This document shows positions 3,123 through 28,901 of a stretch of 32,000 nucleotides of DNA, one piece after another (the stretch's first letter is position 1; the number at the start of each line of letters is the position of its first letter). The DNA is taken from the NCBI RefSeq assembly GCF_000023965.1, contig NC_013202.1, forward strand, positions 750,001 through 782,000, written 5' to 3'. A model generated the notes under the pieces. The model saw only the letters and a program-made list of their open reading frames with translations. It was not told the DNA's origin and ran no database searches. The position numbers and the translations under genes were made by a program. This DNA comes from Halomicrobium mukohataei DSM 12286 (GTDB lineage: Archaea; Halobacteriota; Halobacteria; Halobacteriales; Haloarculaceae).

Positions 3123-3323
3123 TCGAGTTCGACGCCGCCACCAGGGGACTGCAGCGTGCGGCACTGCCGGGTACGGGCGCCTCCCTGCGGGGCGGAGCAT
3201 CCGGCCGGTTTGTCGGGACGCCCCCTCAGGGTACTAAGCAGAAGGTGGGAGCCGACCGACGAAAACAGTATCGCGGCTGCGCAAATTGATCGAGAGCGCG
3301 TCACGTCGAACTCCCCGACGGAG

Positions 3324-6300
3324 TCACTCCCACAGCAGGATACACGGCAGTTCGTCTGGGTCACAGAGTCGTAGGTAGGCGTATCCGATCCCGGAGACGC
3401 CTTGGAAGAAGGTCGGGTCAACAATTTCGGCAGTTTCCGACAGCGTCCGATAGTGGCCGTTGGCACGCCGACTGCCGAGGACGTCACCGAGGGTGCGGCG
3501 AGCAGCGCCCTCGTGGCGCTGGCGTCGACGCTGGAGCGCCAGGAGAAACGCCGCTCGGCCAGCAGAGCCACAGCAGAGGTGGTCGACAGTCGTGGTCTGA
3601 ACGTCGGAGAGCCCCGACGTCGCACGTTCGATGTCGCGCTCTATCGACGGATCTGTGAGGTAGTCTGCCATGCCCAGCCGTGCGAGCCCGATCCCGCTTC
3701 GGCCGTAACACCACTGGTCGGGGTGCCTGTCGGTCCACGGCCGATAGTCGATCCAGTTGTCTGCCTCAGGGACGTACGCGTCGCGTTCGTACGCCAGTGC
3801 CTCAGTCGCCGCATCGAGATATGATTGATTGCCCGTCGCGTCCCACAACCGAACCAACGCGTACGCGATGCCGCTAACACCGTGTGCCATCCCCGTCAGA
3901 GGTGGACAGTCCGGCACCGTTTTCCAGACGCCGACGCCGTCCAGGGTCTGTCTCGCGTCCAGTAACCTGTCACCACACGCCTCGGCCAGCGACAGCAGTT
4001 CCGGCGACTCGATCCGGTTGTACGCCCCGAGAAGCCCCAGTATAGTGCCTGCAGACCCACCGACAGCGTCGTAGGTTTCGTCTTCGGCGATCCGCGCTTC
4101 GGGAAACCGGTTGGCGACTCGCGTTGCATCCTCGAGCATCTCTCGGTCGTCGATCATGGTTCCGATAACACTCAGCCCGTACGCCACCGACCCGACACCG
4201 AGGGCCCCCCCGAGGTTTTCGAACGCCGGGACCTCCCGCTGGGTGCGCACCGCATCGCGAATCGGACCGACGGCCGAACGAGCGAACTCCGCGTATCGAC
4301 TGTCGCCGTCCACGGCAAACAGTGCCGCTCCCAGTAGACCGATACCGACACCACCGACGTACAGCGAACCACCGGCCGGCTGGATGGTCAAGCGGTCGGT
4401 CTCGTGATAGGGTGCGATGCTCGCCCACTGGTAGTGTCCGTCCGCAGTCTCACGAGCACTAGACCGGACGGTTCGGAGCAACCGCTTGCTCTCGCGGAGG
4501 AACGCATCGTCGTTACTGGGTCGTTGCGGCGACGTTCCCGATACGTCCGCGTGTACCTCTCCCTGGGGCGGTTCCCCGTAACATCCCCGGATGATCTCGA
4601 GTTGTTTCCGGAGTTCGGACCGGTCGGCCCGTTCGATTCGCTCTCTGGCGCGCTCGAAACCGGTTTGGCTCGCCGTGATGCCGAGACCCGTACCGCCCCA
4701 CTCTATTTCGTGTTCGTCCGTCCGCGAGGTGAACCGAGGCGGATCGAGGCGTCTGAGCGCCGTCCGCTCCGCCTCGTACAGTGCCCACGGCTTTCGGTCG
4801 GTGATGCTCCCGTCGAAAAACGGCGTCGACAACTGCTCTAGCTCGACGCCGAAACGGACGCCGTCGCCCAGGCAGTCCCTGGAAGTGAGATCGCGTAACA
4901 CCTTCGCGTACTCCATCGTCGGCCGGTACACCAGCCGGTTCCTGAGGCCCTCGAATCGATCGAAAACGGCGATCGACTCCTCCAACGCGCCCGAGTCTCT
5001 GAGGTCGAGGACAGTTTCGTACGCCTCCCGAAAACCATCGACGAGCACCTCGATGTACGCGTCTGGTGGGTGATCGTCTCCGTCAACCACGGGAATCGTC
5101 TCGTCCCGATCCAGTGTCGCGGGCTCGTCCTCGACAGACATGACGTCTGTGTTTTCGGCGACGATCTGTGGGACCTGAATACCGTCGAGCGTTACTTCGC
5201 CCGACCGTTCGCCGAAACCGGCGATACGTTCCCGCATTCGTGACTGTTTGGCATCGGTGTCATGTGCTGATGTGACGTCGTACGGCAGCAAAGAAGTCAA
5301 GAGCGTGCTATCGTCCGTGAGGGTCCCGATATCGCCGCTCCCAGGTCGCCGCTCCGCGTCGAAGTAAGGATGGAAGACGGTCTCGGAGTCGACCAGCAGT
5401 GGCTGGTCGCCAGCCGCTTTCACGTTCTCGAAGTGGCAGTCGGAAAACTCGAAGAGATGCGCCAGACAGAGCCACACACCAGCTCGACGGTAGTACCGCT
5501 CGACCTCACTGTCGTCCTGGCACGGCTCGTGGTCGATCCATTCCATCCACCCGTAGGCATCGCGGTCGAGATACGTCGGAGTGTCGAACGACGGACAGGA
5601 CAGGTGCTCATCGATCGCCTCGAGCGTGTCGTACAGCGCTTCGCCGGCAGCCACGCTCCGGGGCTTGTACACCACACTGAGCCCCGCGTCGAACGTAACA
5701 CGCATGACAGCACGTCCGTCGCCATGCGTGTCGTCGGCGAGCGGTTTGACGCTCACGACCGGGCCGAGATCGTCTCCGCTTCCGAATCGGTCACACAGCA
5801 GGTCCCGGTCCGAACGGAGCCGTTCACAGAACACGTCGAGGTGACGCTGCCACTGCCGAATCTGTGTCACGAGGAGCCGAGCGAACACCGGATACTCCTG
5901 ACAGAGGTCGACGAACCCACCGTCGAACAGGTACGCGACGAATCGGTCGTAGTATTCGCTCGGCGGTTCGTCGAAATCGTTCGGGTCCGCGAATGCGAGT
6001 TCACGGTCGTGTGCTGCCACGAACGACTTGAACTCCACGAACAGAATTCGGGAAAAACGGTTCTGGAACCGAGTTCTGAACCACTCACCCATCTCGGCGA
6101 TAGCTTGGTCGGTGAGCGCCTCCTCAACCTCAGCTGGGACGCGATCGCACACGTAATCAGCCAGTGCCGCGGTCAGTTCTCCGAGCAACCGTCGTTCGTC
6201 CGTGTCGACGTCGAAGCGCGTGTCTGCACGTTCGGGCGAGCGGTCCTGTATCGCTGCGACCGCCGCTTCCAGGCGGTCGACCCACGCCGGGACTGACGCG

Positions 6301-6548
6301 CCTTCGTTCAGCGTTTCGACCTCGATGGCTCGCCGCCACTCGGACTCGGAAACGTCCGACCACTCGATTCGATCCTCGAAGCTCCCGTCGCTGGGAAACT
6401 GCGACCGCCATTCGTCCCACAGTGCCTCGATTCGTTCGTCGTGTTCGACGTCTTGGTCGTACTCGTCGAGCGTCTGTACTCGTTCGTGCAGTGTGCGGGC
6501 CTGTCCGACGATCGATCGTTTTTCAGCGTCAGTGAAGACAGCAGTCAT
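3324..6548 (-). CDS. lanM: class II lanthipeptide synthetase (LanM; N-terminal dehydratase domain plus C-terminal LanC-like cyclase)
   Basis: The 1074-aa product has N-terminal LanM dehydratase-type motifs: DTHGDGRAVMRVTFDAGLSVVYKPRSV, YYRRAGVWLCLAHLFEFSDCHFENVKAAGDQPLLVDSETVF. The C-terminal region has LanC-like repeats GMAHGVSGIAYAL, DQWCYGRSGIGLARL, DHLCCGSAGRAAFL and FQGVSGIGYAYL. Confidence 0.9.
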   Translation of the reverse strand: MTAVFTDAEKRSIVGQARTLHERVQTLDEYDQDVEHDERIEALWDEWRSQFPSDGSFEDRIEWSDVSESEWRRAIEVETLNEGASVPAWVDRLEAAVAAIQDRSPERADTRFDVDTDERRLLGELTAALADYVCDRVPAEVEEALTDQAIAEMGEWFRTRFQNRFSRILFVEFKSFVAAHDRELAFADPNDFDEPPSEYYDRFVAYLFDGGFVDLCQEYPVFARLLVTQIRQWQRHLDVFCERLRSDRDLLCDRFGSGDDLGPVVSVKPLADDTHGDGRAVMRVTFDAGLSVVYKPRSVAAGEALYDTLEAIDEHLSCPSFDTPTYLDRDAYGWMEWIDHEPCQDDSEVERYYRRAGVWLCLAHLFEFSDCHFENVKAAGDQPLLVDSETVFHPYFDAERRPGSGDIGTLTDDSTLLTSLLPYDVTSAHDTDAKQSRMRERIAGFGERSGEVTLDGIQVPQIVAENTDVMSVEDEPATLDRDETIPVVDGDDHPPDAYIEVLVDGFREAYETVLDLRDSGALEESIAVFDRFEGLRNRLVYRPTMEYAKVLRDLTSRDCLGDGVRFGVELEQLSTPFFDGSITDRKPWALYEAERTALRRLDPPRFTSRTDEHEIEWGGTGLGITASQTGFERARERIERADRSELRKQLEIIRGCYGEPPQGEVHADVSGTSPQRPSNDDAFLRESKRLLRTVRSSARETADGHYQWASIAPYHETDRLTIQPAGGSLYVGGVGIGLLGAALFAVDGDSRYAEFARSAVGPIRDAVRTQREVPAFENLGGALGVGSVAYGLSVIGTMIDDREMLEDATRVANRFPEARIAEDETYDAVGGSAGTILGLLGAYNRIESPELLSLAEACGDRLLDARQTLDGVGVWKTVPDCPPLTGMAHGVSGIAYALVRLWDATGNQSYLDAATEALAYERDAYVPEADNWIDYRPWTDRHPDQWCYGRSGIGLARLGMADYLTDPSIERDIERATSGLSDVQTTTVDHLCCGSAGRAAFLLALQRRRQRHEGAARRTLGDVLGSRRANGHYRTLSETAEIVDPTFFQGVSGIGYAYLRLCDPDELPCILLWE

Positions 6549-6630
6549 GCTTCGCCGGGTGCGGTGTTATATGCGGGACGTTCAGCTCCCGTTCGTCGGT
6601 CCGACCTCGTCCGAATTTGGCCTCGTACGA

Positions 6631-6694
6631 TCATAGTAATAATATTATAGTCTTATTTATAATATTTTCTATTAAATTTATAATATTAATATAT
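6631..6694 (-). promoter_or_regulatory. extremely AT-rich block upstream of lanM (candidate TATA/BRE promoter region)
   Basis: The 64 nt contain only about 5 G/C (tcatagtaataatattatagtcttatttataatattttctattaaatttataatattaatatat) in an otherwise GC-rich genome. The block lies 83-146 nt upstream of the lanM ATG and downstream of the hydrolase stop. The exact TATA box is not assignable by eye. Confidence 0.45.
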
Positions 6695-6785
6695 GGGGAA
6701 CGACATCGCCGCCTCCATCACCGTTCGACGGGCGACGACTGCCGTAGTGGCCCGTCGCTGGGACGTGATCCACAGTGTCGATCGG

Positions 6786-8702
6786 TCAGACCACAACGCC
6801 GACCAGGTTCCAGTAGTCACAGAGCCATAGGAGCACAGTCGATGACGCGACGACCCCCGAGTAGCGCAGTCTGTCCGCGAGCGACCATCGTGACTCCCGC
6901 CACGCATGGGCCGCGTATGCGACTGCGACGACCGTCCCGATCGCACCGATCAACGGGATCGAGAGCGGGACCTGTATCCCGGGAGGTGCTCGATCGCCGA
7001 CGGATATCCCGGTCACGGCACTGGCGGCGACGAGCGTGGAGACGAGCGTGAGCACGAATGCGAACGGCCAGCCAGCGGAGACGGCTTCCGCCCACCTTGG
7101 ACGGGAAGACCACGTCCGGTCCGGATCGGTCTCGAACACGCCGCGCACAGACTGAGCGGACAGTCGGAGGATGCTCAGGAGACTGACGAGCATGGCGACA
7201 GCAGCCGTCGCAATCTGAACGTCGTACTGCTCGATCCACGAGACCCGTTCGTACGGTACGACCATCCGACTCTCCAAGATGATGTACTCGGTGCCGTCCT
7301 CGGTGCTCTCAAGGAGCAGCGTGTCGCCGCCGTCGGAGCGCTGGTACAGATCGGGCTCGATCTGTATCCACTCGTGCTCTGTGCTGCCTATTGTCGTGAT
7401 CATCTTTCCGTCGGTTCCGATCGTCACGTCAAGCGACTGGGTCGTGGCCGTCCACAACACTTTGTCGTAGGTCGTCGAGTCGGTCACGTACACCGGCCGG
7501 AACTGTCCCGCAGGTGCCTGCTGTTCCCCCGACTGCGGACGCTCGCCCGGAGGTTCGGTATCGGTATCGCTGCCGACGAAGCGGTCGAGAAACGCGTCCT
7601 CGACGGCATTAACGGCCGCTGGCGATTCCCGACCGTGAGCGGAGACGAAGAGTCCGACCCCGAGCGCTGGCGCGAACACGATCTTGCTCGAGAACCGCGG
7701 GGTCGACCCGCCATGTTCGAGGAGACGAGTGTCGCCGCGGCTGCTTTCCGCAAACCCAAACGCCATACCGCGGATTCGCTCGTGGGGACTGAACCACTCC
7801 TGATGCATGTCGTCGTAGGCTCCCGACGACATGATCGGTTCGCTCGCGTCCCCGTGGTGCAGGTGGGCGTGCAGGAACCGTCCCATATCCGCCGCAGTCG
7901 AGCACATCCCTGACGCAGGCGGGACATCAGAGTACCAGCTGAGGTCGTCAGCGCTCCCGGGTTCGCCCGGAACGAGGGCGGCCGGCGCCGTCTCGAACGT
8001 GCTCTCGGTCATACCGAGCGGTTCGAAGACCTGTCTGTCGACGTACTCGGGGAACGAGTCTCCCGTTACGTCGGATACGAGTTGCCCGGCCACAGCCGCA
8101 GCCCAGTTCGTGTACACCATCATCTCGCCCGGTGGCCGGACCTGAGCTGGTGTCGGGTGGCGGACCGACTCGGCCAACGGACGCACGTCGGTAGGGTCAC
8201 CGACCTTGTCACCCCTGACTCGAGCCTCGAAGCCTGGCGTGTGGGTCGGGAGGTGCCACAGCTTCACCTGCCCGTGGTGCTGTGGAACTGTGACGGACGT
8301 GAGGTGATCAGCGACGGCGTCGTCGACCGCGATACGTCCACGGTCGACCAGTTGCATCAGCGCCGTCCAGGTGATCGCCTTCGAGATCGAGCCGATTTCG
8401 ACAAGCGTCTGTGACGGATCCATCGGTGTGTCGGGCGACCGGTACGCCTGGCCATAGCCGCGGGCGATCGTCTCGCCCGCCCCCGTGACCAGCGACACGG
8501 CGGCGCCGTCGATGTCGAGTTCGGATAGCAGTCGCTCGACGGTGTCGTCTACGAACGCCGCACCGTTTTGCGTCGTCTCCGCTCGACGTCTGCGTTGCGT
8601 CGTCGCGGTACCACTCGCTCCGACGACGTCGCCAGCAGCGCTCGCCGCGCACGCGGCCCCGATCGATCCGAGGAGCCCCCGTCTGGTCGTTCTCGTGTTC
8701 AT
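6786..8702 (-). CDS. Tat-exported beta-lactamase-fold serine hydrolase with C-terminal multi-TM anchor
   Basis: It has an N-terminal twin-arginine signal (MNTRTTRRGLLGSIGAACAASAAG). The S-x-x-K active site is GSISKAIT, the Y-x-N motif is VYTNW, and an H-G-G motif is EHGGS. The last ~140 aa contain about 4 hydrophobic helices (IATAAVAMLVSLLSIL, WPFAFVLTLVSTLVAASAV, IPLIGAIGTVVAVAYAA, GVVASSTVLLWL). Confidence 0.8.
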   Translation of the reverse strand: MNTRTTRRGLLGSIGAACAASAAGDVVGASGTATTQRRRRAETTQNGAAFVDDTVERLLSELDIDGAAVSLVTGAGETIARGYGQAYRSPDTPMDPSQTLVEIGSISKAITWTALMQLVDRGRIAVDDAVADHLTSVTVPQHHGQVKLWHLPTHTPGFEARVRGDKVGDPTDVRPLAESVRHPTPAQVRPPGEMMVYTNWAAAVAGQLVSDVTGDSFPEYVDRQVFEPLGMTESTFETAPAALVPGEPGSADDLSWYSDVPPASGMCSTAADMGRFLHAHLHHGDASEPIMSSGAYDDMHQEWFSPHERIRGMAFGFAESSRGDTRLLEHGGSTPRFSSKIVFAPALGVGLFVSAHGRESPAAVNAVEDAFLDRFVGSDTDTEPPGERPQSGEQQAPAGQFRPVYVTDSTTYDKVLWTATTQSLDVTIGTDGKMITTIGSTEHEWIQIEPDLYQRSDGGDTLLLESTEDGTEYIILESRMVVPYERVSWIEQYDVQIATAAVAMLVSLLSILRLSAQSVRGVFETDPDRTWSSRPRWAEAVSAGWPFAFVLTLVSTLVAASAVTGISVGDRAPPGIQVPLSIPLIGAIGTVVAVAYAAHAWRESRWSLADRLRYSGVVASSTVLLWLCDYWNLVGVVV

Positions 8703-9079
8703 CTTTCGAGACAGACGCTCCGGAACGCTTGCTGCTCGTAGCGGTGACCGTCGGTTACCCCTCGCTGGGTTCCGCTTCGACGGACGACAGTGCGAGACAT
8801 CTCAGTGCCCGGTACGCTTTCCCGTCTCTTAACCTTCCGTCGAGAGTTTCACTGAATGAAACAGTGCACAGTCACCTGGGACCACCGCTACACCGCTCTA
8901 CCGGCGACCAGTCCCATCTCTGCCGCTCGATGCGCCCAGACGGGTCGTCTTCGGATCGACGATTTCGTGGCCTGTCGGTCGAGCCGAGACGAACGGGTAT
9001 CACGCGTTGTACCGTCCTCGCCGTGGCACTAGTCGGTCACGCCGTCACGGTGTGACGTAGCTGCGGTCTGTGGAACCGT

Positions 9080-9817
9080 CTACAACTGCTGCCACAGTTT
9101 CTTGATGGTCTGCACCGGACGACGGAGTCGGTCTCTGGTGTACCGAATCAGTTCCCGTGGATCGTCGACGGCGAATCGAACGAGCGGGACGACATCCTGT
9201 TTGAGTACTTGCGCCGCCTTGATCAGTAGCAGACCAGTCAGTGACAGTATGATCGTGAGTGCGACCAGTCCGCCGATCGTACTCTCGGGCGCGACAAACG
9301 AACTACCGAAGAACCGATCGGAGATCGACAGCAGTAAGAAGACCGCGAACGCACCGCCGGCTACTTTCAGCAGCCGGTTCGCATTGCGCTCCCACGGATT
9401 CTCTTCGAGTCGCTCGAGCAGCGCAGCGCGTGTCTCGGCGCGGACCTCCTGTTGGGTTCGCAGCTCGATGTCCTCCAGGGATCGAGCCTGGTCGGTGCCC
9501 AGTTCTTCGGCGTGCGCCCGACTCGACTCGATGATCTCGGTCTCGTCGTACTCTCGTAGCTGTTGAATCCGCCGCAACACGAGATATGCGTCTGCCAGAG
9601 CGTCTTTGAGTTCCTCGTCGGAAAGGTCCTCGAAGGCCATCTCCAGTTGTCGGTCGGGATAGTCGACCAGCAGTCGAAAATCGACGACGCCGGACTTGAG
9701 CCGTTCCCTGATCCGTTGTTGGTCTCGTCGCCGTTGGTTCTCCTCGAGGGGCTCGAAAGAGTCTTGGATACGCTGTCGCTGCGTTTTCGTCAGTAGCGAC
9801 GCTGACTTCCTCACCAC
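9080..9817 (-). CDS. hypothetical membrane protein (charged coiled N-terminal domain plus 2 TM helices)
   Basis: This is a 245-aa ORF with a GTG start. The N-terminal ~150 aa are highly charged (LTKTQRQRIQDSFEPLEENQRRRDQQRIRERL...). Two hydrophobic helices follow (VAGGAFAVFLLLSI, IGGLVALTIILSLTGLLLI). The start codon is uncertain and no family was recognised. Confidence 0.55.
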   Translation of the reverse strand: MVRKSASLLTKTQRQRIQDSFEPLEENQRRRDQQRIRERLKSGVVDFRLLVDYPDRQLEMAFEDLSDEELKDALADAYLVLRRIQQLREYDETEIIESSRAHAEELGTDQARSLEDIELRTQQEVRAETRAALLERLEENPWERNANRLLKVAGGAFAVFLLLSISDRFFGSSFVAPESTIGGLVALTIILSLTGLLLIKAAQVLKQDVVPLVRFAVDDPRELIRYTRDRLRRPVQTIKKLWQQL

Positions 9818-10005
9818 ATTTTATTTATACTGCGTTCAAACTTAATTGTGGTGATACCGGCGTCCTTGACGGCAGTTGTACACCCGTACAGACCGCTGAG
9901 GCAATTCAAATGCGGTAAACGCGCAGGGTCTGGATCGGAACACCGCACACCGTATCGATCCTGTACGGCCGTACCGACGATCCGCCCAGTGTTAACGGTC
10001 TCTCG

Positions 10006-10013
10006 TTTTTATA
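10006..10013 (+). promoter_or_regulatory. candidate TATA box for the regulator/ABC operon (near-leaderless transcript)
   Basis: TTTTTATA lies 30-37 nt upstream of the ATG at 10043. This spacing is typical of haloarchaeal leaderless mRNAs. Confidence 0.4.
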
Positions 10014-10042
10014 CCATCGGCGGGAAAAGTGACGGCTGCCAC

Positions 10043-10366
10043 ATGAGCCAGTCCCAACCCGCCCCCGAACGACAGGACTCCAACAGGATATACCACGTCC
10101 TGTCGAACAAACACGCCAGGGAGATCCTCAGGCAGATCGCGACCGACAGCAAGACGATCCAGGATTTGACCGCCGTGTGTTCGGCCTCTCGGGTGACGAT
10201 CTACAGACAACTCGATCGACTACAGGAGGCCGGACTCGTCAGCACACAGATGAGCTACGATCCGGACGGCCACCATCGGCGAACGTATCGGGCTCGTCAC
10301 GCAGAGATAACGATCGCGGTCGGACACGAGGGCTTGACGGTAGACATCGACCACAGATGCCAGTAA
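10043..10366 (+). CDS. ArsR-like winged-HTH transcriptional regulator
   Basis: An internal ATG at 10043 (MSQSQPAPERQDSNRIYHVLSNKHAREILRQIATDSKTIQDLTAVCSASRVTIYRQLDRLQEAGLV...) lies within ORF 9848..10366. The upstream extension is basic and unlike real proteins of this genome. The HTH pattern is ArsR/SmtB-like. Its 3' end overlaps the next ATG by 10 nt. Confidence 0.7.
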   Translation: MSQSQPAPERQDSNRIYHVLSNKHAREILRQIATDSKTIQDLTAVCSASRVTIYRQLDRLQEAGLVSTQMSYDPDGHHRRTYRARHAEITIAVGHEGLTVDIDHRCQ

Positions 10367-11307
10367 CACCGATCGAAATTTCCGGTCTCACGAAACGATA
10401 CGGAGAAGTCGTAGCCCTTGACGGTGTCGATCTGACCGTCGAACGAGGAGAAGCGTTTGGGTTTCTCGGACCGAACGGCGCAGGAAAGTCGACCACGATT
10501 CACGCGTTACTCGGGATCGTCGACCCGACCGCCGGAACAGCGAAGCTCTTCGGCCACGACGTCACGAAGAACGCCAAGCGGGTGAGAGAGCGAGTTGGCG
10601 TCGTATCTGAGGGGAGCACACTGTACGATCGTCTCACCGCCCGCGAGCACCTGGCACTGACAGCGCGAATGAAAGGCAGCGAGAGGGATCCAGCCCAGCT
10701 TCTGAAACTGGTCGGCCTGTCCGACGCTGCCGACCGTCCCGTAGGAGAGTTCTCGAAAGGGATGATACAGAGGTTGTCTTTGGCGATAGCACTCGTCGGG
10801 GAGCCGGACCTCCTGATCCTCGATGAACCGACATCGGGTCTGGATCCGAACGGGATCGAGCTCTTTCGAAATATCGTTCGTCGCCGCGTGAGCAACGGGA
10901 CGACGGTCTTCTTCTCGTCGCACGTCCTCTCGGAGGTCGAAGCTATCTGTGACCGGGTTGGAGTCATGCGCGATGGGGCATTGACGACCGTCGAAACGGT
11001 TACAGGGCTCCGAAAAACTCAACCGGCCAACGCTTCGATAGGGTTCGAGCTCTCCCGTGATGGGGCCACCGTGGACGGCCCCGAGAGGATCGTAAACGAC
11101 GTCGATGGCGCCCGCTCTGTCGCAATCGAGGGGCAACGAGTGACGGTCGACGTCGCCTCGAAAGCGGCCAAAATCGAGGTACTTCGACGGATGCTCGAAC
11201 TCGAATGGGTCGTCGACGTGGACATCCACACGGCTTCGCTCCAGTCGGTGTTCCAAGACATATCGACGGCGGACTCGAACGAGGCAATCGCGGAGGCAAG
11301 CCGATGA
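10357..11307 (+). CDS. ABC transporter ATP-binding protein (ABC-2/LanF-like subfamily)
   Basis: Start is set at MPVTPIEISGLTKRYG. It has Walker A GPNGAGKST, a signature-like SKGMIQRL, Walker B LLILDEPTSGLD and H-loop SSHVL. It overlaps the regulator stop upstream and has an ATGA overlap with the permease downstream. Confidence 0.9.
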   Translation: MPVTPIEISGLTKRYGEVVALDGVDLTVERGEAFGFLGPNGAGKSTTIHALLGIVDPTAGTAKLFGHDVTKNAKRVRERVGVVSEGSTLYDRLTAREHLALTARMKGSERDPAQLLKLVGLSDAADRPVGEFSKGMIQRLSLAIALVGEPDLLILDEPTSGLDPNGIELFRNIVRRRVSNGTTVFFSSHVLSEVEAICDRVGVMRDGALTTVETVTGLRKTQPANASIGFELSRDGATVDGPERIVNDVDGARSVAIEGQRVTVDVASKAAKIEVLRRMLELEWVVDVDIHTASLQSVFQDISTADSNEAIAEASR

Positions 11308-12113
11308 CAGTGCGCGAGATAGCGCGGGTCGACCTTCGTCGTGCCAGACGGACCAAAGTCGTGCGAATAGCCGCAATCGTACTGGCGCTGTTTGCGAGCT
11401 TCGTGTTCCTCGGCGCTGGCATGCCGGGCGGGTATCTCGTCCAGATGTATTTCGGCGCGATCCTGTTCCCTCTATTAGGTATCGGCCTGGCGTATCGTTC
11501 GGTCGCCGGTGAATGCCAAAGTGGGAACGTCCAGTATCTCCTCTCGCTGCCGAACGACCGTCTGGAGGTGCTGCTCGGCAAGTGCCTGTCACGGGTCGGG
11601 ATCGCAGTCGTCGTCGTCGTGACCGCGTACACGCTCGTCGGTGTCGTCCTGCCGCTCGCGTCCGACGCCCCCTTGTCGGCGCTTCCCAGCTACGTGCGGT
11701 TCGTCGCTCTCACTGCGCTGTTCGTCACGGCTCATGCCGGCGTCGCTGTCGGCGTCTCCGCCGCAACGCGCAGCACCGGACGGACGCTCGGTGTCATGGC
11801 CGCGTACTTTTTCCTCTTCGACTTCATGTGGGTGTTCCCCGACGGATTTTCGACGGTCATGGCGTTGACGAGGGTGCTCGAAGCGGTGGGCATCACCGTC
11901 TCGGAAACCGCGCGAGCAGGGTTGTGGATCACGAGTCCCGCGGGCGCGTACGTCCACGCCATGGATCCGATTCTCCCGCGGAACTTTCTCGACCCGATTA
12001 CCGTTGACGCGTGGTTTCTCTCGAGCACGATGGCAACGGCCGTCCTCCTGTGTTGGACCGCGTTGCCGCCGCTGATCTGCTATCGATGGTTCGCTCGTGC
12101 CGACCTCGACTGA
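11304..12113 (+). CDS. ABC-2 type transporter permease
   Basis: Start is at MTVREIARVDLRRARRTKVV, with an ATGA overlap onto the ATPase stop. The product is 269 aa with about 6 hydrophobic helices. Its position directly after an ABC-2-type ATPase supports the call. Confidence 0.7.
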   Translation: MTVREIARVDLRRARRTKVVRIAAIVLALFASFVFLGAGMPGGYLVQMYFGAILFPLLGIGLAYRSVAGECQSGNVQYLLSLPNDRLEVLLGKCLSRVGIAVVVVVTAYTLVGVVLPLASDAPLSALPSYVRFVALTALFVTAHAGVAVGVSAATRSTGRTLGVMAAYFFLFDFMWVFPDGFSTVMALTRVLEAVGITVSETARAGLWITSPAGAYVHAMDPILPRNFLDPITVDAWFLSSTMATAVLLCWTALPPLICYRWFARADLD

Positions 12114-12169
12114 ATGCACGGTTCGTCCACCTACTGTTTTTCGGTTACGCTTCTAGAGTGGCAAATACT

Positions 12170-13252
12170 ATGGATTCAAGGGATGAATTCACCCTCATGA
12201 CTGCTGATTCTGGTTCTCTACACGACGAGGAAACCGACCGCGAGACGGCAGCAACTGATCCGACCACCGACGACGAATCCGTTCTCTCCGTCAGAAACCT
12301 GGAGAAACGTTACGGGAGGGGCGACGACGCCGTTGAGGCAGTCACCGATCTCACATTCGACGTCGAGCCCGGCACCGTCGTTGGGCTGTTAGGACCCAAC
12401 GGGGCGGGGAAAACGACGACCATCAAGATGCTCCTCGGGCTCATCATCCCGACAGCGGGGAGCGTCGAGGTAGCCGGTATCGATGTCCACGAAAACCTAT
12501 CGCAGGGTTACAACAGTATCAGCGCCGTGCTAGAAGGTGCCAGGAACGTCTACTGGAGGCTGACGGTCAAGCAGAACGTCCGGTTTTTCGCCTCTCTGTC
12601 GGGCATCGATCCGAACGACAGGGCGAGCTATCACACCGAGTTACTCGACCTCTTCGATCTCACGGAGAAAGCCGACACCGCAGTCAGGGAACTCTCCCGC
12701 GGTCAGAAACAGAAGGTCAGCCTCGCGTGTACGTTCGCCCGGGAGACGGACGTCGTCGTTCTCGACGAACCGACGCTGGGGCTCGACGTCGAGAGTGGTC
12801 TCAATCTGCGTCAGGAACTGAACCGTATCGTCGACGAGTACGGAACGACGGTGATACTCTCGAGTCACGACATGGACGTGATCGAAGACCTCTGTGACAG
12901 AGTGATAATAATGGAGGACGGCGAGATCGTCGCCGACGATAGCGTCTCGAATCTCTTGGGGGTATTTAACCAGCAATGCTACGAGATAACAGTTGATGGT
13001 GACCTCCAAGAAGCGACTCGTCGTCGATTGCGTACCGAGTACGAGGTCGAAGAGTTCGACGGACAGTACGAATCGACCCGGTTTCGGGCCCGGGTCGCGG
13101 ACGACGGCATCTACAACCTGATGCAATCGCTGCAGTCTGCCGGTGTGACGGTGGATACGATCGAGACAGTTCGTCCGGATCTTGAGGAAGTGTTTCTCGA
13201 GGTCACGAATGCAAGACACGCGACGCGTCCAGCGGAGGTGCCGACCCGATGA
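12170..13252 (+). CDS. ABC transporter ATP-binding protein (second copy, acidic N-terminal extension)
   Basis: Start is at MDSRDEF (an alternative is MTADSG at 12197). It has Walker A GPNGAGKTT, signature SRGQKQKV, Walker B VVVLDEPTLGLD and H-loop SSHDM. There is a C-terminal ~100-aa extra domain. Confidence 0.85.
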   Translation: MDSRDEFTLMTADSGSLHDEETDRETAATDPTTDDESVLSVRNLEKRYGRGDDAVEAVTDLTFDVEPGTVVGLLGPNGAGKTTTIKMLLGLIIPTAGSVEVAGIDVHENLSQGYNSISAVLEGARNVYWRLTVKQNVRFFASLSGIDPNDRASYHTELLDLFDLTEKADTAVRELSRGQKQKVSLACTFARETDVVVLDEPTLGLDVESGLNLRQELNRIVDEYGTTVILSSHDMDVIEDLCDRVIIMEDGEIVADDSVSNLLGVFNQQCYEITVDGDLQEATRRRLRTEYEVEEFDGQYESTRFRARVADDGIYNLMQSLQSAGVTVDTIETVRPDLEEVFLEVTNARHATRPAEVPTR

Positions 13253-14079
13253 CCGACACGATCGGACACACGAGGCAGTCCGACGCGAATGCGGGACTGA
13301 CGACGCTGTTCAAGGCCGTCGCAGCCAAGCGAATCCACCTGCTCGTCCAGTATCCGGTGAACACGTTCTCACAGGTGGTCACGCTGTATCTCTTCTTCGC
13401 CGTCGTCTTCTTCGGCGGACGAGAGGCGTCCAGCAGAGTCGCGGACGGAACTGGAGCCCTGTCTTCGACACTCGACGGCGTCATCGTCGGGTGGTTTCTT
13501 CTGACGATGGCGCAGGCGGCGTACTTCGGACTTGCGTCGAACATCATCAGGGAGTCTCAGTGGGGCACGCTAGAGCAACTCCACATGACTCCGTACGGAT
13601 TCGGCACCGTCGTCGCCGTGAAGACCGTTTGGAACGTCGTCGAGAGTGCCGGCTGGGGGCTGCTTATCCTCGCGTTGATGCTGCTTACGACCGGGAGATC
13701 GCTCGTGATCGACGCAGTTGCGGTCGTTCCGATCAGTATCTTGTCGATCCTCTCGATCATCGGGGTCGGGTTCGTCTTTGCCGGCCTGGCGCTCGTGTAC
13801 AAACGAATCGAGAAGGTCACGAGCCTCCTCCAGTTCGCCCTCATCGGACTAATTGCAGCTCCGGTCGTCGAGATCCCCGCGACGAGACTGCTCCCCCTCG
13901 TGCAGGGGTCTTCCATGCTCCAAGCGACCATGCGCCAGGGTGTCGAGCTCACCGAGTTCCCACCGGTCGCGTTCGCGTTGCTCGTCGGCACTGCCTTCGG
14001 CTACCTTCTGGCCGGGTACGTCGTCTTTCTCGTCTGTATGCGGGTTGCGAAACGCCGAGGCGTCATGGGGCACTACTGA
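13249..14079 (+). CDS. ABC-2 type transporter permease (second copy)
   Basis: It has an ATGA overlap with the preceding ATPase. The 276-aa product has about 6 TM helices (VVTLYLFFAVVFFGG, VIVGWFLLTMAQAAYF, GWGLLILALMLL, ISILSILSIIGVGFVFAGLALV, LLQFALIGLIAAPVV, AFALLVGTAFGYLLAGYVVFLV). Confidence 0.75.
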   Translation: MTDTIGHTRQSDANAGLTTLFKAVAAKRIHLLVQYPVNTFSQVVTLYLFFAVVFFGGREASSRVADGTGALSSTLDGVIVGWFLLTMAQAAYFGLASNIIRESQWGTLEQLHMTPYGFGTVVAVKTVWNVVESAGWGLLILALMLLTTGRSLVIDAVAVVPISILSILSIIGVGFVFAGLALVYKRIEKVTSLLQFALIGLIAAPVVEIPATRLLPLVQGSSMLQATMRQGVELTEFPPVAFALLVGTAFGYLLAGYVVFLVCMRVAKRRGVMGHY

Positions 14080-14747
14080 CGGAGATCCACTGCCGGAGAC
14101 GTTCACAGGGGACAACGGTACGCTTGCGACCCGACACGGAGTGGCGGTACAAGAAAGCGAACCGACAGGAGATCCCGAGCGGTGGGAGTCGTCCAGTGGG
14201 CCCTCGTACACTGTCTGCTGGTCGACCGTCGACGGCTGGGAACGGCAGCGAAAACGGTCTGAGAGGCAGAGAATCCGACCGGGAGGGTTCGAAGAGGGCC
14301 ACCACTCGAATCCGCGTGCGCTTGTATCGTCCCGAAACTGATGACCATCAGGTGCTCGGCAGCACTCGATCCGACCGTTTCATGCTACAATGCGAGCAGC
14401 GTAGTCGGCTGACTGACTGCCGGATCACTTCGAAGAATAACGACACAGTTGACGATGGTTTCAGTCGAGGTGGTCCTCTCATCGTCGGTGGTGTCGGGTC
14501 GTTGAGCAACATTGAGAGTGGAGTCCCCCTCCGAACAGTGAGTAGCAAGACCCACTGTATCGGGCGCTATTGACAGATGTAATACACTATGAATGAGTGC
14601 AAAAAGCCGATTAAAGACATCATATCCTGTGATTTCACCCAGATCTGACGACAGACCATTATTTTTAATTAGTAAAATGATAGTTATAAACTAAGATAAA
14701 TATACCTTAATCCATAAATTTAAGTAACTTACTTCCATGATGTCAAG

Positions 14748-14770
14748 TGATGTCAGGTTATCAGACATCA
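14748..14770 (+). promoter_or_regulatory. inverted repeat (TGATGTC-N9-GACATCA) plus tandem GATGTCA(A/G)G just upstream of lanA
   Basis: The sequence tgatgtcaag (14738-14747) is directly repeated as tgatgtcagg (14748-14757). TGATGTC (14748-14754) is complementary to GACATCA (14764-14770), which ends 6 nt before the lanA ATG. It could be an operator or a 5'-UTR hairpin. Confidence 0.35.
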
Positions 14771-14776
14771 TCCAAG

Positions 14777-14908
14777 ATGGCGTACAGTGCGAGCAACGAC
14801 CTGAAGACTGAGCTGGATCAGCTCTTTGATATCGATAGCCCGACGATCAAAGCACACGACAAGAAGTGCTTCACGGAATCCTGCACCTGTTCGATCGCCT
14901 GCTTCTAA
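14777..14908 (+). CDS. lanA: lanthipeptide precursor peptide (LanA), 43 aa, not in the ORF track
   Basis: ATG 14777 to TAA 14906-14908 translates to MAYSASNDLKTELDQLFDIDSPTIKAHDKKCFTESCTCSIACF. The leader is acidic and helix-prone. The C-terminal 13 residues carry 4 Cys plus 2 Thr plus 2 Ser. About 77% of third codon positions are G/C (33 of 43) despite the AT-rich surroundings. It lies directly behind a ~200-bp AT-rich promoter-like region, in the same locus as lanM and the ABC-2 transporters. Confidence 0.75.
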   Translation: MAYSASNDLKTELDQLFDIDSPTIKAHDKKCFTESCTCSIACF

Positions 14909-14924
14909 ACTGGTAGCGCGAGTC

Positions 14925-14943
14925 GCGGCCCAACGGCCGCTTT
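14925..14943 (+). terminator. short GC hairpin followed by TTT after lanA
   Basis: GCGGCC-caac-GGCCGC (14925-14940) is followed by TTT (14941-14943), 17 nt after the lanA stop. The evidence is weak because archaeal terminators are poorly defined. Confidence 0.3.
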
Positions 14944-15508
14944 CATCCGAAATATTTGATTTCCGATCGGAGGGTTCCGGACGGTAGTCCGTGAATTCTG
15001 GTGCTGTCGGCTTCTCGGACAGGATCGAACTGTATACGGCCGAACGACAGTCTGGAGACCGAACTGAGGCGGCAAACCGGTATCGACGCCGGATGAGTAC
15101 GTCACGCGAGGATTGTTCGCGGAACCCATAGCCTGCGCAGATCAGTGTTCCTGGAGATACCGTCGGTCGGCACCAATCGGACCCAGATCAGCGTGAGGAC
15201 CGTTGAGGTCGCCCTGATCGGTGAAATCAACGTCGTCTGGACGTGGACGCTGTTGAGGAGTGTCATCACCAGATTGAGGGCTGGCCAGAGCCGATAGCGA
15301 GTGCGAAGCCCCGACATTGCTCGGCACCGTACCGCGACCAGTCTCCGGTTCGCAAGCCTCGACGCCTGCCTGAACGGCCACCCCACCCTCACGGAACCAC
15401 GCCGATGCCAGACAGTGAGATCGCGACAGAGATTCGCGAAACACCCCATCACCGGACTGCAGCGTGACTGACGCCCGTCCGACGGGGCTTTTTGCCGTGG
15501 GAACTACC

Positions 15509-15530
15509 CACATACACACACACACACACA
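15509..15530. repeat. (CA)n dinucleotide microsatellite
   Basis: The sequence is cacat(ac)8a, 15509-15530. Its last base is the A of the ATG at 15530. Confidence 0.9.
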
Positions 15531-15781
15531 TGTCATCGAACGGTCCCCCAACCGGGAGCGACACCCCGGCAGTCGGACTCGAACGGTCGGACGCCGTCGG
15601 AACGGTCCACCAGCTCGAACGGCGGCTGCTCCGTGAGCGGATCGAACACCTGGAGGCGAAGCTGTCGCGTGAACGGCGACAGCGCCAGCAGATCGTCGAG
15701 CAGTACGAGCGGCTACTGGACGAGGAACGGACGAGAGCGGAAGGCGAGAGCGGCGAGGGGCTGTTCGAGAAGCTGTTGTGA
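15530..15781 (+). CDS. small coiled-coil hypothetical protein (83 aa)
   Basis: The product is MSSNGPPTGSDTPAVGLERSDAVGTVHQLERRLLRERIEHLEAKLSRERRQRQQIVEQYERLLDEERTRAEGESGEGLFEKLL. GC3 is high and the charged heptad-like region fits a coiled coil. The GTG-extended version from 15464 would translate the CA repeat as THIHTHTH and is considered less likely. Confidence 0.5.
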   Translation: MSSNGPPTGSDTPAVGLERSDAVGTVHQLERRLLRERIEHLEAKLSRERRQRQQIVEQYERLLDEERTRAEGESGEGLFEKLL

Positions 15782-15787
15782 GGGGCG

Positions 15788-28117: not shown

Positions 28118-28210
28118 CAGCGTCGTCCGGTCGTCTCGGCGGTATCCCGTTCTGTGAACAGTTGCCGAGTAGTCGGCGTCGACCAGGTGATCGACCGCGA
28201 TGGTGATACG

Positions 28211-28627: not shown

Positions 28628-28763
28628 GACGGAAGTATTTCGCCTTGTAAGTCAAAAATATATCTCTGAGAATGTAGAATCGAGCCAGACAGTATTTGTT
28701 GTCCGTTCAAATGTTGGTACCGACCGGCAGGGAGAGGAGCCACATGGGAAGCGCCAGTGAGGA

Positions 28764-28901
28764 TCACTCCGCGTGATCACCGCGGTACTCCGACTCCGAC
28801 GGGAGCCACGTACCCGATTCGTCATCGAGCAGTTCTTCCGAAACATCCTCGCCGAGGAGCGACGCCCACTCCTCGAGGTGTGAGCGATCAGGTTGGAGCA
28901 T
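28764..28901 (-). CDS. possible small acidic protein (45 aa) in the spacer of the paralog array
   Basis: The product is MLQPDRSHLEEWASLLGEDVSEELLDDESGTWLPSESEYRGDHAE. It is in a different frame from the listed 88-aa ORF 28652..28918, whose product is basic and implausible. The acidic composition fits the proteome. There is no homology evidence. Confidence 0.25.
   Translation of the reverse strand: MLQPDRSHLEEWASLLGEDVSEELLDDESGTWLPSESEYRGDHAE

What the first reader, a model, noticed from the sequence alone, without database searches (positions are those of the whole stretch)
3324..14908. Complete-looking class II lanthipeptide gene cluster in a haloarchaeal chromosome with a split architecture
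On the minus strand lie lanM (3324-6548), a Tat-exported serine hydrolase (6786-8702) and a membrane protein (9080-9817). On the plus strand lie a wHTH regulator, ABC ATPase 1, permease 1, ABC ATPase 2, permease 2 (10043-14079) and lanA (14777-14908). The two sets diverge from the intergenic region at 9818-10042.

The biosynthetic enzyme and its substrate are therefore at opposite ends of an ~11.6-kb locus, each behind its own extremely AT-rich block (6631-6694 and ~14640-14736). Two ABC ATPase/ABC-2 permease pairs are the classical LanFEG-like self-immunity or export arrangement. All parts are seen directly. That they form one functional unit is inferred from co-localisation and shared lower-GC composition.
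Basis: partly seen in the sequence, partly recalled or inferred. Interest (0 to 1): 0.8.

Follow-up and report, generated by a model that had tools for sequence, protein, structure and literature searches.

The report
Known haloarchaeal lanthipeptide cluster, mosaic island
This is the class II lanthipeptide gene cluster of Halomicrobium mukohataei, already listed in published surveys; its enzyme, precursor peptide and one ABC transporter pair belong together, but the hydrolase, regulator and membrane-protein genes look like passengers on the same genomic island.

Summary

The window is the Halomicrobium mukohataei DSM 12286 chromosome. LanM is Hmuk_0783. The cluster (antiSMASH region CP001688.1:743323-766548) and the exact precursor peptide are already in the supplements of Liang 2023 and Song 2025. 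No product has been linked to it.

- **Core.** The supported core is lanM, lanA and the second ATPase/permease pair. Homologues of that pair sit next to LanM in 10 of 26 other genomic LanM loci. The order LanM | ABC pair | LanA recurs in several of them.
- **lanA start.** lanA most likely starts at 14750 (52 aa), not 14777.
- **Pair 1.** It recurs only in the closest relative, and partly in one other locus.
- **Not co-conserved.** The hydrolase, wHTH regulator and 245-aa membrane protein occur in no other LanM locus. A close relative has the hydrolase beside thrC without LanM.
- **Island.** Positions 3113-15614 are a low-GC3 island between thrC and serA. It is absent from two sister genomes and flanked by a 17-nt direct repeat.
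- **Transporter class.** Curated LanFEG criteria are not met, and there is no LanT or LanP.

Verdict: already known, with the functional unit smaller than proposed.

The parts
3142..3158 (+). Left copy of a 17-nt direct repeat (CAGGGGACTGCAGCGTG) at the island boundary, 20 nt after the thrC stop codon.
   Evidence: There are only two matches in the 32-kb window, one at each end of the island; 0.17 are expected by chance. Homology with the empty-site genomes ends at 3112.
3324..6548 (-). lanM, the class II lanthipeptide synthetase (1074 aa; Hmuk_0783).
   Evidence: TIGR03897 835 bits (cutoff 304); DUF4135 plus LANC_like. The kinase-like D370-x-H-x-x-N375...D387 loop, K295, the GMAHG and WCYG motifs, and a CCG zinc motif are all present. 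It is 100% identical to an NCBI Halomicrobium protein.
6610..6714 (.). Extremely AT-rich block upstream of lanM (minimum 6% GC over 50 nt). A second TATA-like CATATAA lies about 25 nt before the lanM ATG.
   Evidence: AT-rich blocks lie within 260 nt upstream of 14 of 29 LanM genes, against 4.2% of background windows. Promoter function is inferred.
6786..8702 (-). Probably Tat-exported, membrane-anchored S12/beta-lactamase-fold serine hydrolase. It is island cargo but probably not part of the biosynthetic unit.
   Evidence: PF00144; motifs SxxK, YxN and HGG; RR signal; C-terminal TM segments. It is absent from all other LanM loci. It is present beside thrC without LanM in L031 and in LanM-free contexts in L033 and L034.
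9080..9817 (-). 245-aa protein with a charged N-terminal domain and two predicted TM segments; role unknown. It is transcribed divergently from the transporter operon.
   Evidence: No Pfam, NCBIfam or PHROG hit. No homologue in other LanM loci.
9818..10042 (.). Divergent intergenic region (52% GC) with a TTTTTATACC box about 30 nt before the wHTH ATG.
   Evidence: Sequence read; GC. Promoter role is inferred.
10043..10366 (+). Small winged-helix regulator (ArsR/PadR/HVO_A0261-like). It overlaps the start of ATPase1 by 10 nt.
   Evidence: Weak Pfam and NCBIfam hits near or below the cutoffs. Not found in other LanM loci at E<1e-5.
10357..11307 (+). ABC ATPase 1 (316 aa), DrrA-like.
   Evidence: PF00005 116 bits. 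TIGR01188 241.6 bits and TIGR03740 187 bits, both below their cutoffs. A homologue lies beside LanM only in L005 (46%), and a partial one in L029 (55%).
11304..12113 (+). ABC-2 permease 1 (269 aa), translationally coupled to ATPase 1.
   Evidence: PF12679 80 bits, cutoff 27.2. A 28% homologue sits next to LanM in L005 and a 29% homologue sits in the LanM-free L083.
12170..13252 (+). ABC ATPase 2 (360 aa), DrrA-like with a DrrA C-terminal domain. It is the ATPase of the LanM-associated transporter.
   Evidence: Homologues of 47-57% identity lie beside LanM in 10 genomic loci and in L057/58 and L064.
13249..14079 (+). Permease 2 (276 aa, six predicted TM segments), overlapping ATPase 2 by 4 nt. 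It belongs to the LanM-linked sub-clade of a wider haloarchaeal permease family.
   Evidence: No significant Pfam or PDB sequence hit. The permease role is inferred from TM count, gene coupling and constant adjacency to the ATPase.
14632..14763 (.). AT-rich block upstream of lanA, containing a TATA-like AATTTAAGTA (14717-14726).
   Evidence: The identical 10-mer lies at a similar distance before the LanA of L006, and similar boxes lie before the L005 LanAs.
14750..14908 (+). lanA precursor, 52 aa (MSGYQTSSKMAYSASNDLKTELDQLFDIDSPTIKAHDKKCFTESCTCSIACF). The 43-aa form from 14777 is the published version.
   Evidence: Sequence. It is listed in Liang 2023 Supplementary Table 1. It matches the LanA profile at E=7e-18 and is the only such ORF in the window. 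It carries the leader motif KxxLDxxFD.
15450..15466 (+). Right copy of the 17-nt direct repeat (CACCGGACTGCAGCGTG), just before a conserved hairpin and T-run (15474-15486).
   Evidence: Homology with L031 and L035 resumes at 15448 and 15464, and with the empty sites at 15615.

Best explanation
The locus is the chromosomal class II lanthipeptide cluster of Halomicrobium mukohataei. It sits inside a 12.5-kb mosaic genomic island inserted between thrC and serA.

**Working core**
- lanA (14750-14908).
- lanM (3324-6548).
- The ATPase2/permease2 ABC transporter (12170-14079).

**Proposed mechanism**
1. LanA is made from its own TATA-containing AT-rich promoter, probably as a leaderless or near-leaderless monocistronic mRNA.
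2. LanM binds the leader through the haloarchaeal Kxx(F/Y/L)(D/E)xxF(D/E) motif.
3. LanM phosphorylates and eliminates the four Ser/Thr residues of the C-terminal CFTESCTCSIACF region.
4. Its ProcM-like Cys-Cys-Cys zinc site then adds the four Cys residues, forming up to four (methyl)lanthionine rings.
5. The ABC-2-type ATPase2/permease2 pump moves the peptide out of the cell and/or keeps it off the producer's membrane.
6. No LanT or LanP is encoded, so the leader is probably removed by non-dedicated proteases, as reported for other archaeal lanthipeptides.

**Accessory and passenger genes**
- The wHTH-ATPase1-permease1 module is a plausible regulated accessory pump for immunity, shared only with the closest relative.
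- The serine hydrolase and the 245-aa membrane protein are most likely unrelated island cargo.

**Shown versus inferred.** Shown: gene identities, intact catalytic motifs, co-conservation patterns, island boundaries. Inferred: substrate-enzyme pairing, ring formation, direction and role of transport, promoter use.
For: **LanM and LanA**
- LanM identity and intact motifs.
- LanA fits a profile built from LanAs of other haloarchaeal LanM loci (E=7e-18) and is the only such ORF in the window.
- Its nearest relatives are encoded next to the two nearest LanMs, in L005 and L006.
- The leader motif matches the published one.

**Transporter pair 2**
- ATPase2/permease2 homologues (42-57% identity) lie within about 0.3-4 kb of LanM in 10 of 26 genomic LanM loci and in 3 metagenomic ones.
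- The window's permease falls in a clade where every member with usable context is LanM-linked.
- LanA-like ORFs occur only in LanM-bearing loci. The order LanM | ABC pair | LanA recurs in L005, L008, L015 and L057/58.
- The experimentally expressed cib2 cluster (L017) has the same ABC genes beside LanM.

**Island**
- Empty sites exist in L036 and L037. The breakpoints are 3112 and 15615.
- A 17-nt repeat flanks the island.
- GC3 is reduced across all island genes.

**Hydrolase independence:**

**Published listing of the cluster and precursor:**
Against: - No product has been linked to this cluster. The strain was cultured and peptide-like MALDI signals were seen, but none was assigned.
- LanA lies 8.2 kb from lanM, the largest separation among the loci examined.
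- The first aromatic position of the leader motif is Leu rather than Phe/Tyr.
- The ATPase2/permease2 family is mostly LanM-free in metagenomes, so linkage rests on one sub-clade and a distance-based tree.
- L038, a member of that sub-clade, shows no LanM within 10 kb on one side and 6.8 kb on the other.
- Permease2 has no significant family or PDB sequence match.
- The 17-nt repeats bracket the whole island including the hydrolase, so co-transfer of all the genes cannot be excluded.
- There are no expression data.
Confidence: 0.72

Rival explanations
1. One reading: all nine genes from 3324 to 14908 form one functional unit. In it the Tat-exported serine hydrolase acts in maturation (for example extracellular leader removal), the membrane protein acts as an immunity factor, the wHTH acts as the cluster regulator, and both ABC pairs act as LanFEG-type immunity or export pumps.
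For: - All the genes lie in one island that is absent from sister genomes and bracketed by a 17-nt direct repeat.
- All have reduced GC3.
- The arrangement is 100% conserved in several Halomicrobium assemblies.
- Archaeal lanthipeptide clusters lack a known leader peptidase, so an unconventional one is conceivable.
- Both ABC pairs also flank LanM in the closest relative, L005.
Against: - The hydrolase, wHTH and membrane protein have no homologue in 26 other genomic LanM loci.
- The orthologous hydrolase sits beside thrC without LanM in L031. Its 41%-identical homologues in Halogeometricum and Halopiger are in unrelated contexts.
- lanM together with its AT-rich block is a precise 3.6-kb indel relative to L031.
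- Curated LanFEG thresholds are not met.
- S12 hydrolases are not a known LanP type (established knowledge).
Confidence: 0.12
2. Only lanM and lanA are functionally linked. Both ABC pairs are ordinary efflux transporters that happen to be neighbours.
For: - 70 of 73 metagenomic loci with permease2 homologues show no LanM, though many are short.
- Several long ones sit among housekeeping genes such as methylmalonyl-CoA mutase and acetyl-CoA synthetase.
- Pair 1 is no closer to its LanM-linked copy than to LanM-free copies.
- Trace product formation from larA plus larM alone shows a dedicated pump is not strictly needed.
Against: - Ten of 26 independent genomic LanM loci have the pair-2 homologue within a few kb. 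That is far above the roughly 0.6% expected for a single-copy gene in a 3.5-Mb genome (the estimate is my own).
- The LanM-linked copies form a coherent clade that includes the window's permease.
- LanA genes are repeatedly placed on the far side of this pair.
Confidence: 0.1
3. The cluster is a silent or decaying remnant of horizontal transfer. lanM and lanA were separated by later insertions and no lanthipeptide is made.
For: - No product was linked despite cultivation.
- The island is mosaic, with apparent successive insertions.
- The LanM-LanA distance is unusually long.
Against: - LanM is full length with every catalytic motif.
- lanA is intact and has a canonical TATA box.
- All transporter ORFs are intact and translationally coupled.
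- Other archaeal clusters that are silent in the wild type gave products on heterologous expression.
Confidence: 0.06

Closest known systems
This same cluster as already catalogued: Halomicrobium mukohataei DSM 12286, antiSMASH region CP001688.1:743323-766548, LanM Hmuk_0783 (Liang et al. 2023, PMC10105419; Song et al. 2025, PMC12144867).
   Same: Identical LanM (100%) and an identical 43-aa precursor sequence in Liang 2023 Supplementary Table 1. The region is classed as lanthipeptide-class-ii.
   Different: - Those papers list it without a product. They list the real precursor alongside spurious small ORFs.
- In the text I could read, they do not discuss the hydrolase, the island boundaries or the longer LanA start.
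- Castro et al. 2021 could not be read.
Halorussus litoreus HD8-51 Scaffold15 cluster (locus L005): predicted only, and not the characterised 'lit' cluster.
   Same: - It has the closest LanM (51%).
- Both ABC pairs are present beside LanM (ATPase2 57%, permease2 55%, ATPase1 46%, permease1 28%).
- Its LanAs lie downstream of permease2 on the far side from LanM.
- Its LanAs share the MSxxQTSxxxM...KxxLDxLF leader and AT-rich blocks before each lanA.
   Different: - It has seven tandem LanAs rather than one.
- It has no hydrolase, wHTH or 245-aa membrane protein.
- Gene order differs: permease2 and ATPase2 are divergent from ATPase1, permease1 and LanM.
- The core peptides are longer and richer in Cys.
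cib2 cluster of Haloferax denitrificans (ciblan A2; locus L017), validated by heterologous expression in Song 2025.
   Same: LanM is 38% identical. ATPase2 (56%) and permease2 (53%) homologues lie immediately upstream of LanM. It also has no LanT or LanP.
   Different: It is compact and co-directional (ATPase, permease, LanM). The LanA family differs. Its product is known (bicyclic, with a Dhb residue) and has a reported effect on motility.
Bacterial class II lanthipeptide clusters, such as lacticin 481 or nukacin with LanT and LanFEG, and ProcM/prochlorosins.
   Same: The LanM has the same two-domain architecture and catalytic motifs; the best PDB matches are LicM2 and CylM. The CCG zinc-ligand motif is as in ProcM-type enzymes (the ProcM comparison is from my own knowledge). 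The precursor has a leader and a Cys/Ser/Thr-rich core.
   Different: - There is no C39-peptidase ABC exporter (LanT) and no subtilisin LanP.
- The transporters are one-ATPase/one-permease ABC-2 pairs that fail the curated LanFEG thresholds.
- The leader motif is the archaeal Kxx(F/Y)(D/E)xxF rather than a GG/GA-type leader.

Membership tests
Class II (LanM-type) lanthipeptide biosynthetic cluster | A single bifunctional synthetase with an N-terminal dehydratase (DUF4135) and a C-terminal LanC-like cyclase. | tested here: met
   TIGR03897 835 bits against cutoff 304; PF13575 351 bits; PF05147 179 bits.
Class II (LanM-type) lanthipeptide biosynthetic cluster | Catalytic residues are intact: the kinase-like Lys and DxHxxN...D loop, the cyclase His, and three zinc ligands. 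| tested here: met
   K295, D370/H372/N375, D387, GMAHG, WCYG and LCCG are all present. They are invariant or near-invariant in a 25-sequence alignment and align to LicM2.
Class II (LanM-type) lanthipeptide biosynthetic cluster | A linked precursor gene with a leader and a Ser/Thr- plus Cys-containing core. | tested here: met
   The core region CFTESCTCSIACF has four Cys and four Ser/Thr. It matches the LanA profile at E=7e-18. It lies in the same island as lanM.
Class II (LanM-type) lanthipeptide biosynthetic cluster | The product contains (methyl)lanthionine rings. | not testable with these tools
   This needs MS or NMR. No product has been assigned in the literature I read.
Haloarchaeal LanA leader family (Castro motif Kx(Y/F)(D/E)xx(F/Y), as quoted in PMC10105419) | The conserved leader motif. 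| tested here: met
   The window has K-T-E-L-D-Q-L-F-D. D23 and F26 are invariant in alignment A3. The first aromatic position is Leu, as in one L005 paralogue.
LanFEG lantibiotic immunity ABC transporter | The ATPase reaches the curated 'lantibiotic protection ABC transporter ATP-binding subunit' threshold. | tested here: not met
   TIGR03740: 187 bits (ATPase1) and 121 bits (ATPase2) against cutoff 309.75.
LanFEG lantibiotic immunity ABC transporter | Two different permease subunits (LanE and LanG, MutE/MutG family) serve one ATPase. | tested here: not met
   There are two separate ATPase-permease pairs. Permease1 scores 20 bits on MutG against cutoff 117, and permease2 has no hit. The two permeases are not detectably related.
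LanFEG lantibiotic immunity ABC transporter | It confers self-protection on the producer. | not testable with these tools
   This requires deletion and sensitivity assays.
LanT (AMS/PCAT) lanthipeptide exporter-protease | An N-terminal C39 peptidase domain fused to a six-TM ABC_membrane domain and an ATPase. | tested here: not met
   No PF03412 or PF00664 hit in any of the nine island proteins.
LanP leader peptidase (subtilisin-like S8) | A subtilase domain encoded in the cluster. | tested here: not met
   The only hydrolase is of the beta-lactamase/S12 fold (PF00144) and is not co-conserved with LanM.
DrrAB-type ABC-2 exporter | A DrrA-subfamily ATPase with an ABC-2 family permease. | tested here: inconclusive
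   - The best NCBIfam hit for both ATPases is TIGR01188 drrA (241.6 and 226.6 bits), below the cutoff of 312.45.
- Permease1 passes PF12679 (80 bits against 27.2).
- Permease2 gives only E=0.15 on ABC2_membrane_3.

The most novel reading that the evidence does not exclude
The Tat-exported, membrane-anchored S12 serine hydrolase wedged between lanM and the transporter operon has been recruited in Halomicrobium as the extracellular leader- or trimming-peptidase for this lanthipeptide. Song 2025 explicitly leaves that enzyme activity unidentified for archaeal lanthipeptides.

A second, milder novel reading concerns the island. The thrC-serA gap with its 17-nt flanking repeats could be an integrase-less cassette-exchange hotspot that assembles such clusters piecemeal.
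Probability: 0.07. Interest if true: 0.55.

Novelty: already known. Interest (0 to 1): 0.2.

Why it matters
Archaeal lanthipeptides are a young field. The first structures appeared in 2023 and about two dozen in 2025. The Halomicrobium product is still unassigned, so the cluster is a legitimate target.

The existence of the cluster, its LanM, its precursor and the general composition of LanM plus LanA plus ABC transporter are already published.

What this analysis adds is practical:
- A minimal gene set for heterologous expression: lanA from 14750, lanM, and ATPase2/permease2.
- A warning that the hydrolase, regulator and membrane protein are probably island passengers.
- Exact island boundaries.
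- Predicted masses to search for in the MS data that the published work collected for this strain.

Tried and rejected
- **Neighbour clustering with longest-ORF calling.** It failed because GC-rich DNA produces long spurious ORFs. I replaced it with GC3-filtered calling.
- **Searches for the 245-aa membrane protein.** Pfam at E<=10, NCBIfam and PHROGs all gave nothing. A precomputed 'DUF8102 (weak)' label could not be reproduced.
- **Permease2.** A profile search against PDB sequences gave no hit at E<=10. hhalign of permease1 against the permease2 alignment showed no relationship. I did not run structure prediction, because the deep alignment contains sequences the tool would refuse.
- **Castro et al. 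2021.** The library does not hold it. Its motif is cited second-hand from PMC10105419.
- **tRNA and Rfam scans of the window.** Neither found anything, so no tRNA-linked integration site. No integrase-like ORF was seen in the island.
- **Hairpin after lanA.** It folds no better than shuffled sequence (z = -1.0), so I do not claim it as a terminator. The sigma-70 promoter scan does not apply to archaea.
- **Hydrolase as an ancestral resident gene.** I considered this after seeing L031 and rejected it. H. katesii and the two empty-site genomes lack the hydrolase, so it is itself variable cargo.
- **L005 as the characterised 'lit' cluster.** Rejected, because LitA groups with Aln-beta rather than with the L005 peptides.

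Full report
**1. Observation**

| Coordinates | Product | Evidence |
|---|---|---|
| 3324-6548(-) | 1074-aa LanM | TIGR03897 835 bits (cutoff 304); DUF4135 + LANC_like |
| 6786-8702(-) | beta-lactamase-fold serine hydrolase | PF00144; TRRGLL twin-arginine N-terminus; SxxK, YxN and HGG motifs; 3-4 C-terminal TM segments |
| 9080-9817(-) | 245-aa protein, two predicted TM segments | no family hit |
| 10043-10366(+) | weak ArsR/PadR/HVO_A0261-type wHTH | |
| 10357-11307(+) | ABC ATPase 1 | |
| 11304-12113(+) | ABC-2 permease 1 | PF12679 |
| 12170-13252(+) | ABC ATPase 2 | |
| 13249-14079(+) | permease 2, six TM segments | |

- The small ORF at 14777-14908 encodes MAYSASNDLKTELDQLFDIDSPTIKAHDKKCFTESCTCSIACF.
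- The two AT-rich blocks are real. They span 6610-6714 and 14632-14763, each below 30% GC, and the lanM block falls to 6% GC over 50 nt.
- The region has lower GC than its flanks (0.607 against 0.665-0.688).
- Third-codon-position GC is 0.69-0.80 in every gene of the region, against 0.85-0.90 in the flanking thrC, serA, hef and mdh.

**2. Identity and prior knowledge**

- The LanM is 100% identical to an NCBI 'MULTISPECIES [Halomicrobium]' protein carried on a 3,110,487-bp contig.
- The supplements of Song et al. 2025 list antiSMASH region CP001688.1:743323-766548 of H. mukohataei (GCF_000023965.1) as 'lanthipeptide-class-ii'.
- Supplementary Table 1 of Liang et al. 2023 lists the identical 43-aa peptide under H. 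mukohataei DSM 12286 (Hmuk_0783).
- That strain was one of five that Liang et al. cultured. MALDI peptide signals were seen but none was linked to this cluster.
- The same papers state that archaeal class II clusters typically contain LanM, LanA and an ABC transporter.
- The finding is therefore a rediscovery of a catalogued but chemically uncharacterised cluster.

**3. LanM is intact**

- A 25-sequence alignment of haloarchaeal LanMs was compared with LicM2 (PDB 6ST5).
- K295 (YKPR) and the D370-C-H-F-E-N375 catalytic loop with D387 are conserved.
- So are the cyclase motifs GMAHG and WCYG and a Cys-Cys-Gly third zinc motif.
- CCG replaces the commoner CHG in the consensus of all 25 archaeal sequences.

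**4. LanA is genuine but probably longer**

- The closest LanM is in Halorussus litoreus (locus L005, 51% identity).
- It is accompanied by seven tandem small ORFs whose leaders resemble the window peptide.
- One example is MSATQTSTFGMTHSTTDSELKTQLDRLFESD..., against MSGYQTSSKMAYSASNDLKTELDQLFDID... in the window.
- An alignment of 14 LanAs from eight LanM loci starts at a shared MS..QTS..GM segment. It has an invariant D and F in a Kxx(F/Y/L)(D/E)xxF(D/E) motif, which is the leader motif attributed to Castro et al..
- The conserved N-terminal segment is encoded in the window only if translation starts at ATG 14750, giving 52 aa.
- An independent gene call is 52 aa.
- A TATA-like AATTTAAGTA lies about 30 nt upstream of 14750. 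The identical 10-mer sits before the LanA of L006.
- A profile built from the alignment finds exactly one LanA in the 32-kb window, at E=7e-18.

**5. Which neighbours are co-conserved with LanM?**

A genome-collection scan with the LanM alignment returned 26 independent loci. tblastn of all the window proteins against them gave these results:

| Window gene(s) | Found next to LanM elsewhere |
|---|---|
| ATPase2 + permease2 | 10 loci at 42-57% identity: L005, L008, L013, L014, L015, L017, L019, L023, L026, L030 |
| ATPase1 + permease1 | only L005 (46% and 28%), plus a truncated 55% ATPase match in L029 |
| hydrolase, wHTH, 245-aa membrane protein | none |

- L017 is the H. denitrificans cib2 cluster, which has been expressed heterologously to give ciblan A2. 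Its transcript list includes an ABC ATPase beside LanM.

The reverse test was a metagenome scan with a permease2 alignment. It returned 73 loci.
- Only three (L057/58 and L064) contain LanM.
- Long LanM-free loci place the pair among housekeeping genes.
- In a neighbour-joining tree, the window permease falls in a clade with L005, L013, L014, L017, L023 and L026. Every member of that clade with at least 8 kb of flank on both sides is LanM-linked.
- The LanM-free loci lie in other clades.
- One short-flank member of the LanM-linked clade, L038, shows no LanM within reach. This is a caveat.
- LanA-like ORFs are found only in LanM-bearing loci.
- Pair 2 therefore belongs to a LanM-associated branch of a broader haloarchaeal exporter family.
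- Pair 1 is no closer to its LanM-linked homologue than to LanM-free ones.

**6. The 'split architecture'**

- In L005, L008, L015 and L057/58 the LanA genes also lie on the far side of the ABC pair from LanM, 2.9-6.6 kb away.
- The window's 8.2 kb is the extreme of a recurrent layout. The extra distance comes from the intervening hydrolase, membrane-protein, wHTH and pair-1 genes.
- AT-rich blocks are also recurrent. Fourteen of 29 LanM genes have a 50-nt stretch of at most 34% GC within 260 nt upstream, against 4.2% of background windows.
- Five of the seven L005 lanA copies have an AT-rich block directly upstream.

**7. The island and the hydrolase**

The flanking genes are threonine synthase (thrC, 1743-3122) and phosphoglycerate dehydrogenase (serA, about 15788-17377). 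The thrC-serA gap differs between relatives:

| Genome (locus) | thrC identity | Content of the thrC-serA gap |
|---|---|---|
| H. mukohataei GCA_012726095 (L036) | 95% | one small ORF only |
| Halomicrobium sp. LC1Hm (L037) | 94% | one small ORF only |
| H. katesii (L035) | 98% | short-chain dehydrogenase, acetoacetate decarboxylase-like gene and two small ORFs (83 and 176 aa) |
| metagenomic relative (L031) | 91.5% (serA 92.6%) | thrC, hydrolase (70% aa identity), PKD protein, dehydrogenase, decarboxylase, serA; no LanM and no ABC block |

- In L036 and L037, DNA homology with the window runs to 3112 and resumes at 15615.
- Relative to L031, window positions 3128-6715 (lanM plus its AT-rich block) are a clean insertion between thrC and the hydrolase.
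- Window positions 8704-15447 replace the other cargo.
- More distant hydrolase homologues (41%) in Halogeometricum and Halopiger sit in unrelated contexts.
- A 17-nt sequence, CA(GG/CC)GGACTGCAGCGTG, occurs only twice in the window, at 3142-3158 and 15450-15466. Those are the two island ends, and 0.17 matches are expected by chance.
- I read this as a mosaic island at a recombination hotspot. The lanthipeptide genes and the hydrolase arrived, or were reshuffled, separately.
- I cannot exclude that the present 12.3-kb arrangement later moved as one piece.

**8. Comparison with known systems**

- Membership of the class II lanthipeptide family is met on every feature I could test.
- LanFEG membership is not met. 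Scores on TIGR03740 and the MutG model fall below their cutoffs. The subunit layout is wrong. The two permeases are unrelated to each other.
- No LanT (C39 plus ABC_membrane) and no subtilisin LanP is encoded.
- This matches the published picture for archaeal clusters, where leader removal is attributed to unidentified host proteases.

**9. Verdict**

- The cluster is already known, so interest is low.
- The remaining value is a refined minimal gene set, a corrected lanA start, exact island boundaries and mass predictions for linking a product.

Noticed in passing
window 3142-3158 and 15450-15466: A 17-nt direct repeat, CA(GG/CC)GGACTGCAGCGTG, occurs only at the two ends of the 12.3-kb island. 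Diverged versions of the same motif sit at the thrC-proximal and serA-proximal edges of the different islands in L031 and L035, and once in the empty sites L036 and L037. It looks like an att-like or microhomology site, yet no integrase is present.
   Followed up: partly
window 3113-15614; loci L031, L035, L036, L037: The thrC-serA gap is a hypervariable hotspot in Halomicrobium. It is empty in two genomes. It holds a dehydrogenase, a decarboxylase-like gene and two small ORFs in H. katesii. It holds the hydrolase, a PKD protein, a dehydrogenase and a decarboxylase in a metagenomic relative. It holds the lanthipeptide island here.
   Followed up: yes
window 6610-6714 and 14632-14763; L005 3574-5316 and 9879-9933; many other LanM loci: Very AT-rich blocks of 50-130 nt recur just upstream of lanM and lanA genes across haloarchaeal genera (14 of 29 LanM genes against 4.2% of background windows). 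A shared AATTTAAGTA-like TATA box lies about 30 nt before the LanA start codons. I did not find this discussed in the papers I read.
   Followed up: partly
LanM residues about 989-996 (DHLCCGSAG); alignment A1: The consensus of all 25 aligned haloarchaeal LanMs has a CCG rather than a CHG third zinc-ligand motif, as in ProcM-type promiscuous synthetases (that comparison is from my own knowledge). Neither 'CCG' nor 'ProcM' appears in the main text of the two archaeal lanthipeptide papers.
   Followed up: partly
L005 3404-5681 (Halorussus litoreus HD8-51 Scaffold15): There are seven tandem LanA paralogues, five with an AT-rich block directly upstream, downstream of the permease2 homologue. This multi-precursor cluster is the window's closest relative. 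It appears to be uncharacterised, since it is not the published 'lit' cluster.
   Followed up: partly
L007 (uncultured Halobacteriales contig, 28.7 kb): Three LanM genes (3698-7060, 7693-10956, 13523-16756) are interleaved with at least five LanA-like ORFs on a single contig.
   Followed up: no
window 28200-32000: This is a second low-GC stretch (0.50-0.60). It has six co-directional minus-strand ORFs (28211-31915) with no Pfam or PHROG hit, and further AT-rich blocks at 30801-30952 and 31919-31999. It may be another island running off the window.
   Followed up: partly
window about 15506-15529: A (CA)n microsatellite, ACACACACACACACACAC, lies immediately upstream of the ATG of the 83-aa ORF next to serA. 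The relatives L031 and L035 have only a short non-repeat version at that position.
   Followed up: no
L072 8829-14613, L083 4798-11751, L066: In LanM-free metagenomic loci, homologues of pair 2 and pair 1 also lie within about 4-5 kb of each other, flanking methylmalonyl-CoA-mutase-like genes. The two transporter types therefore co-occur independently of LanM in some lineages.
   Followed up: partly
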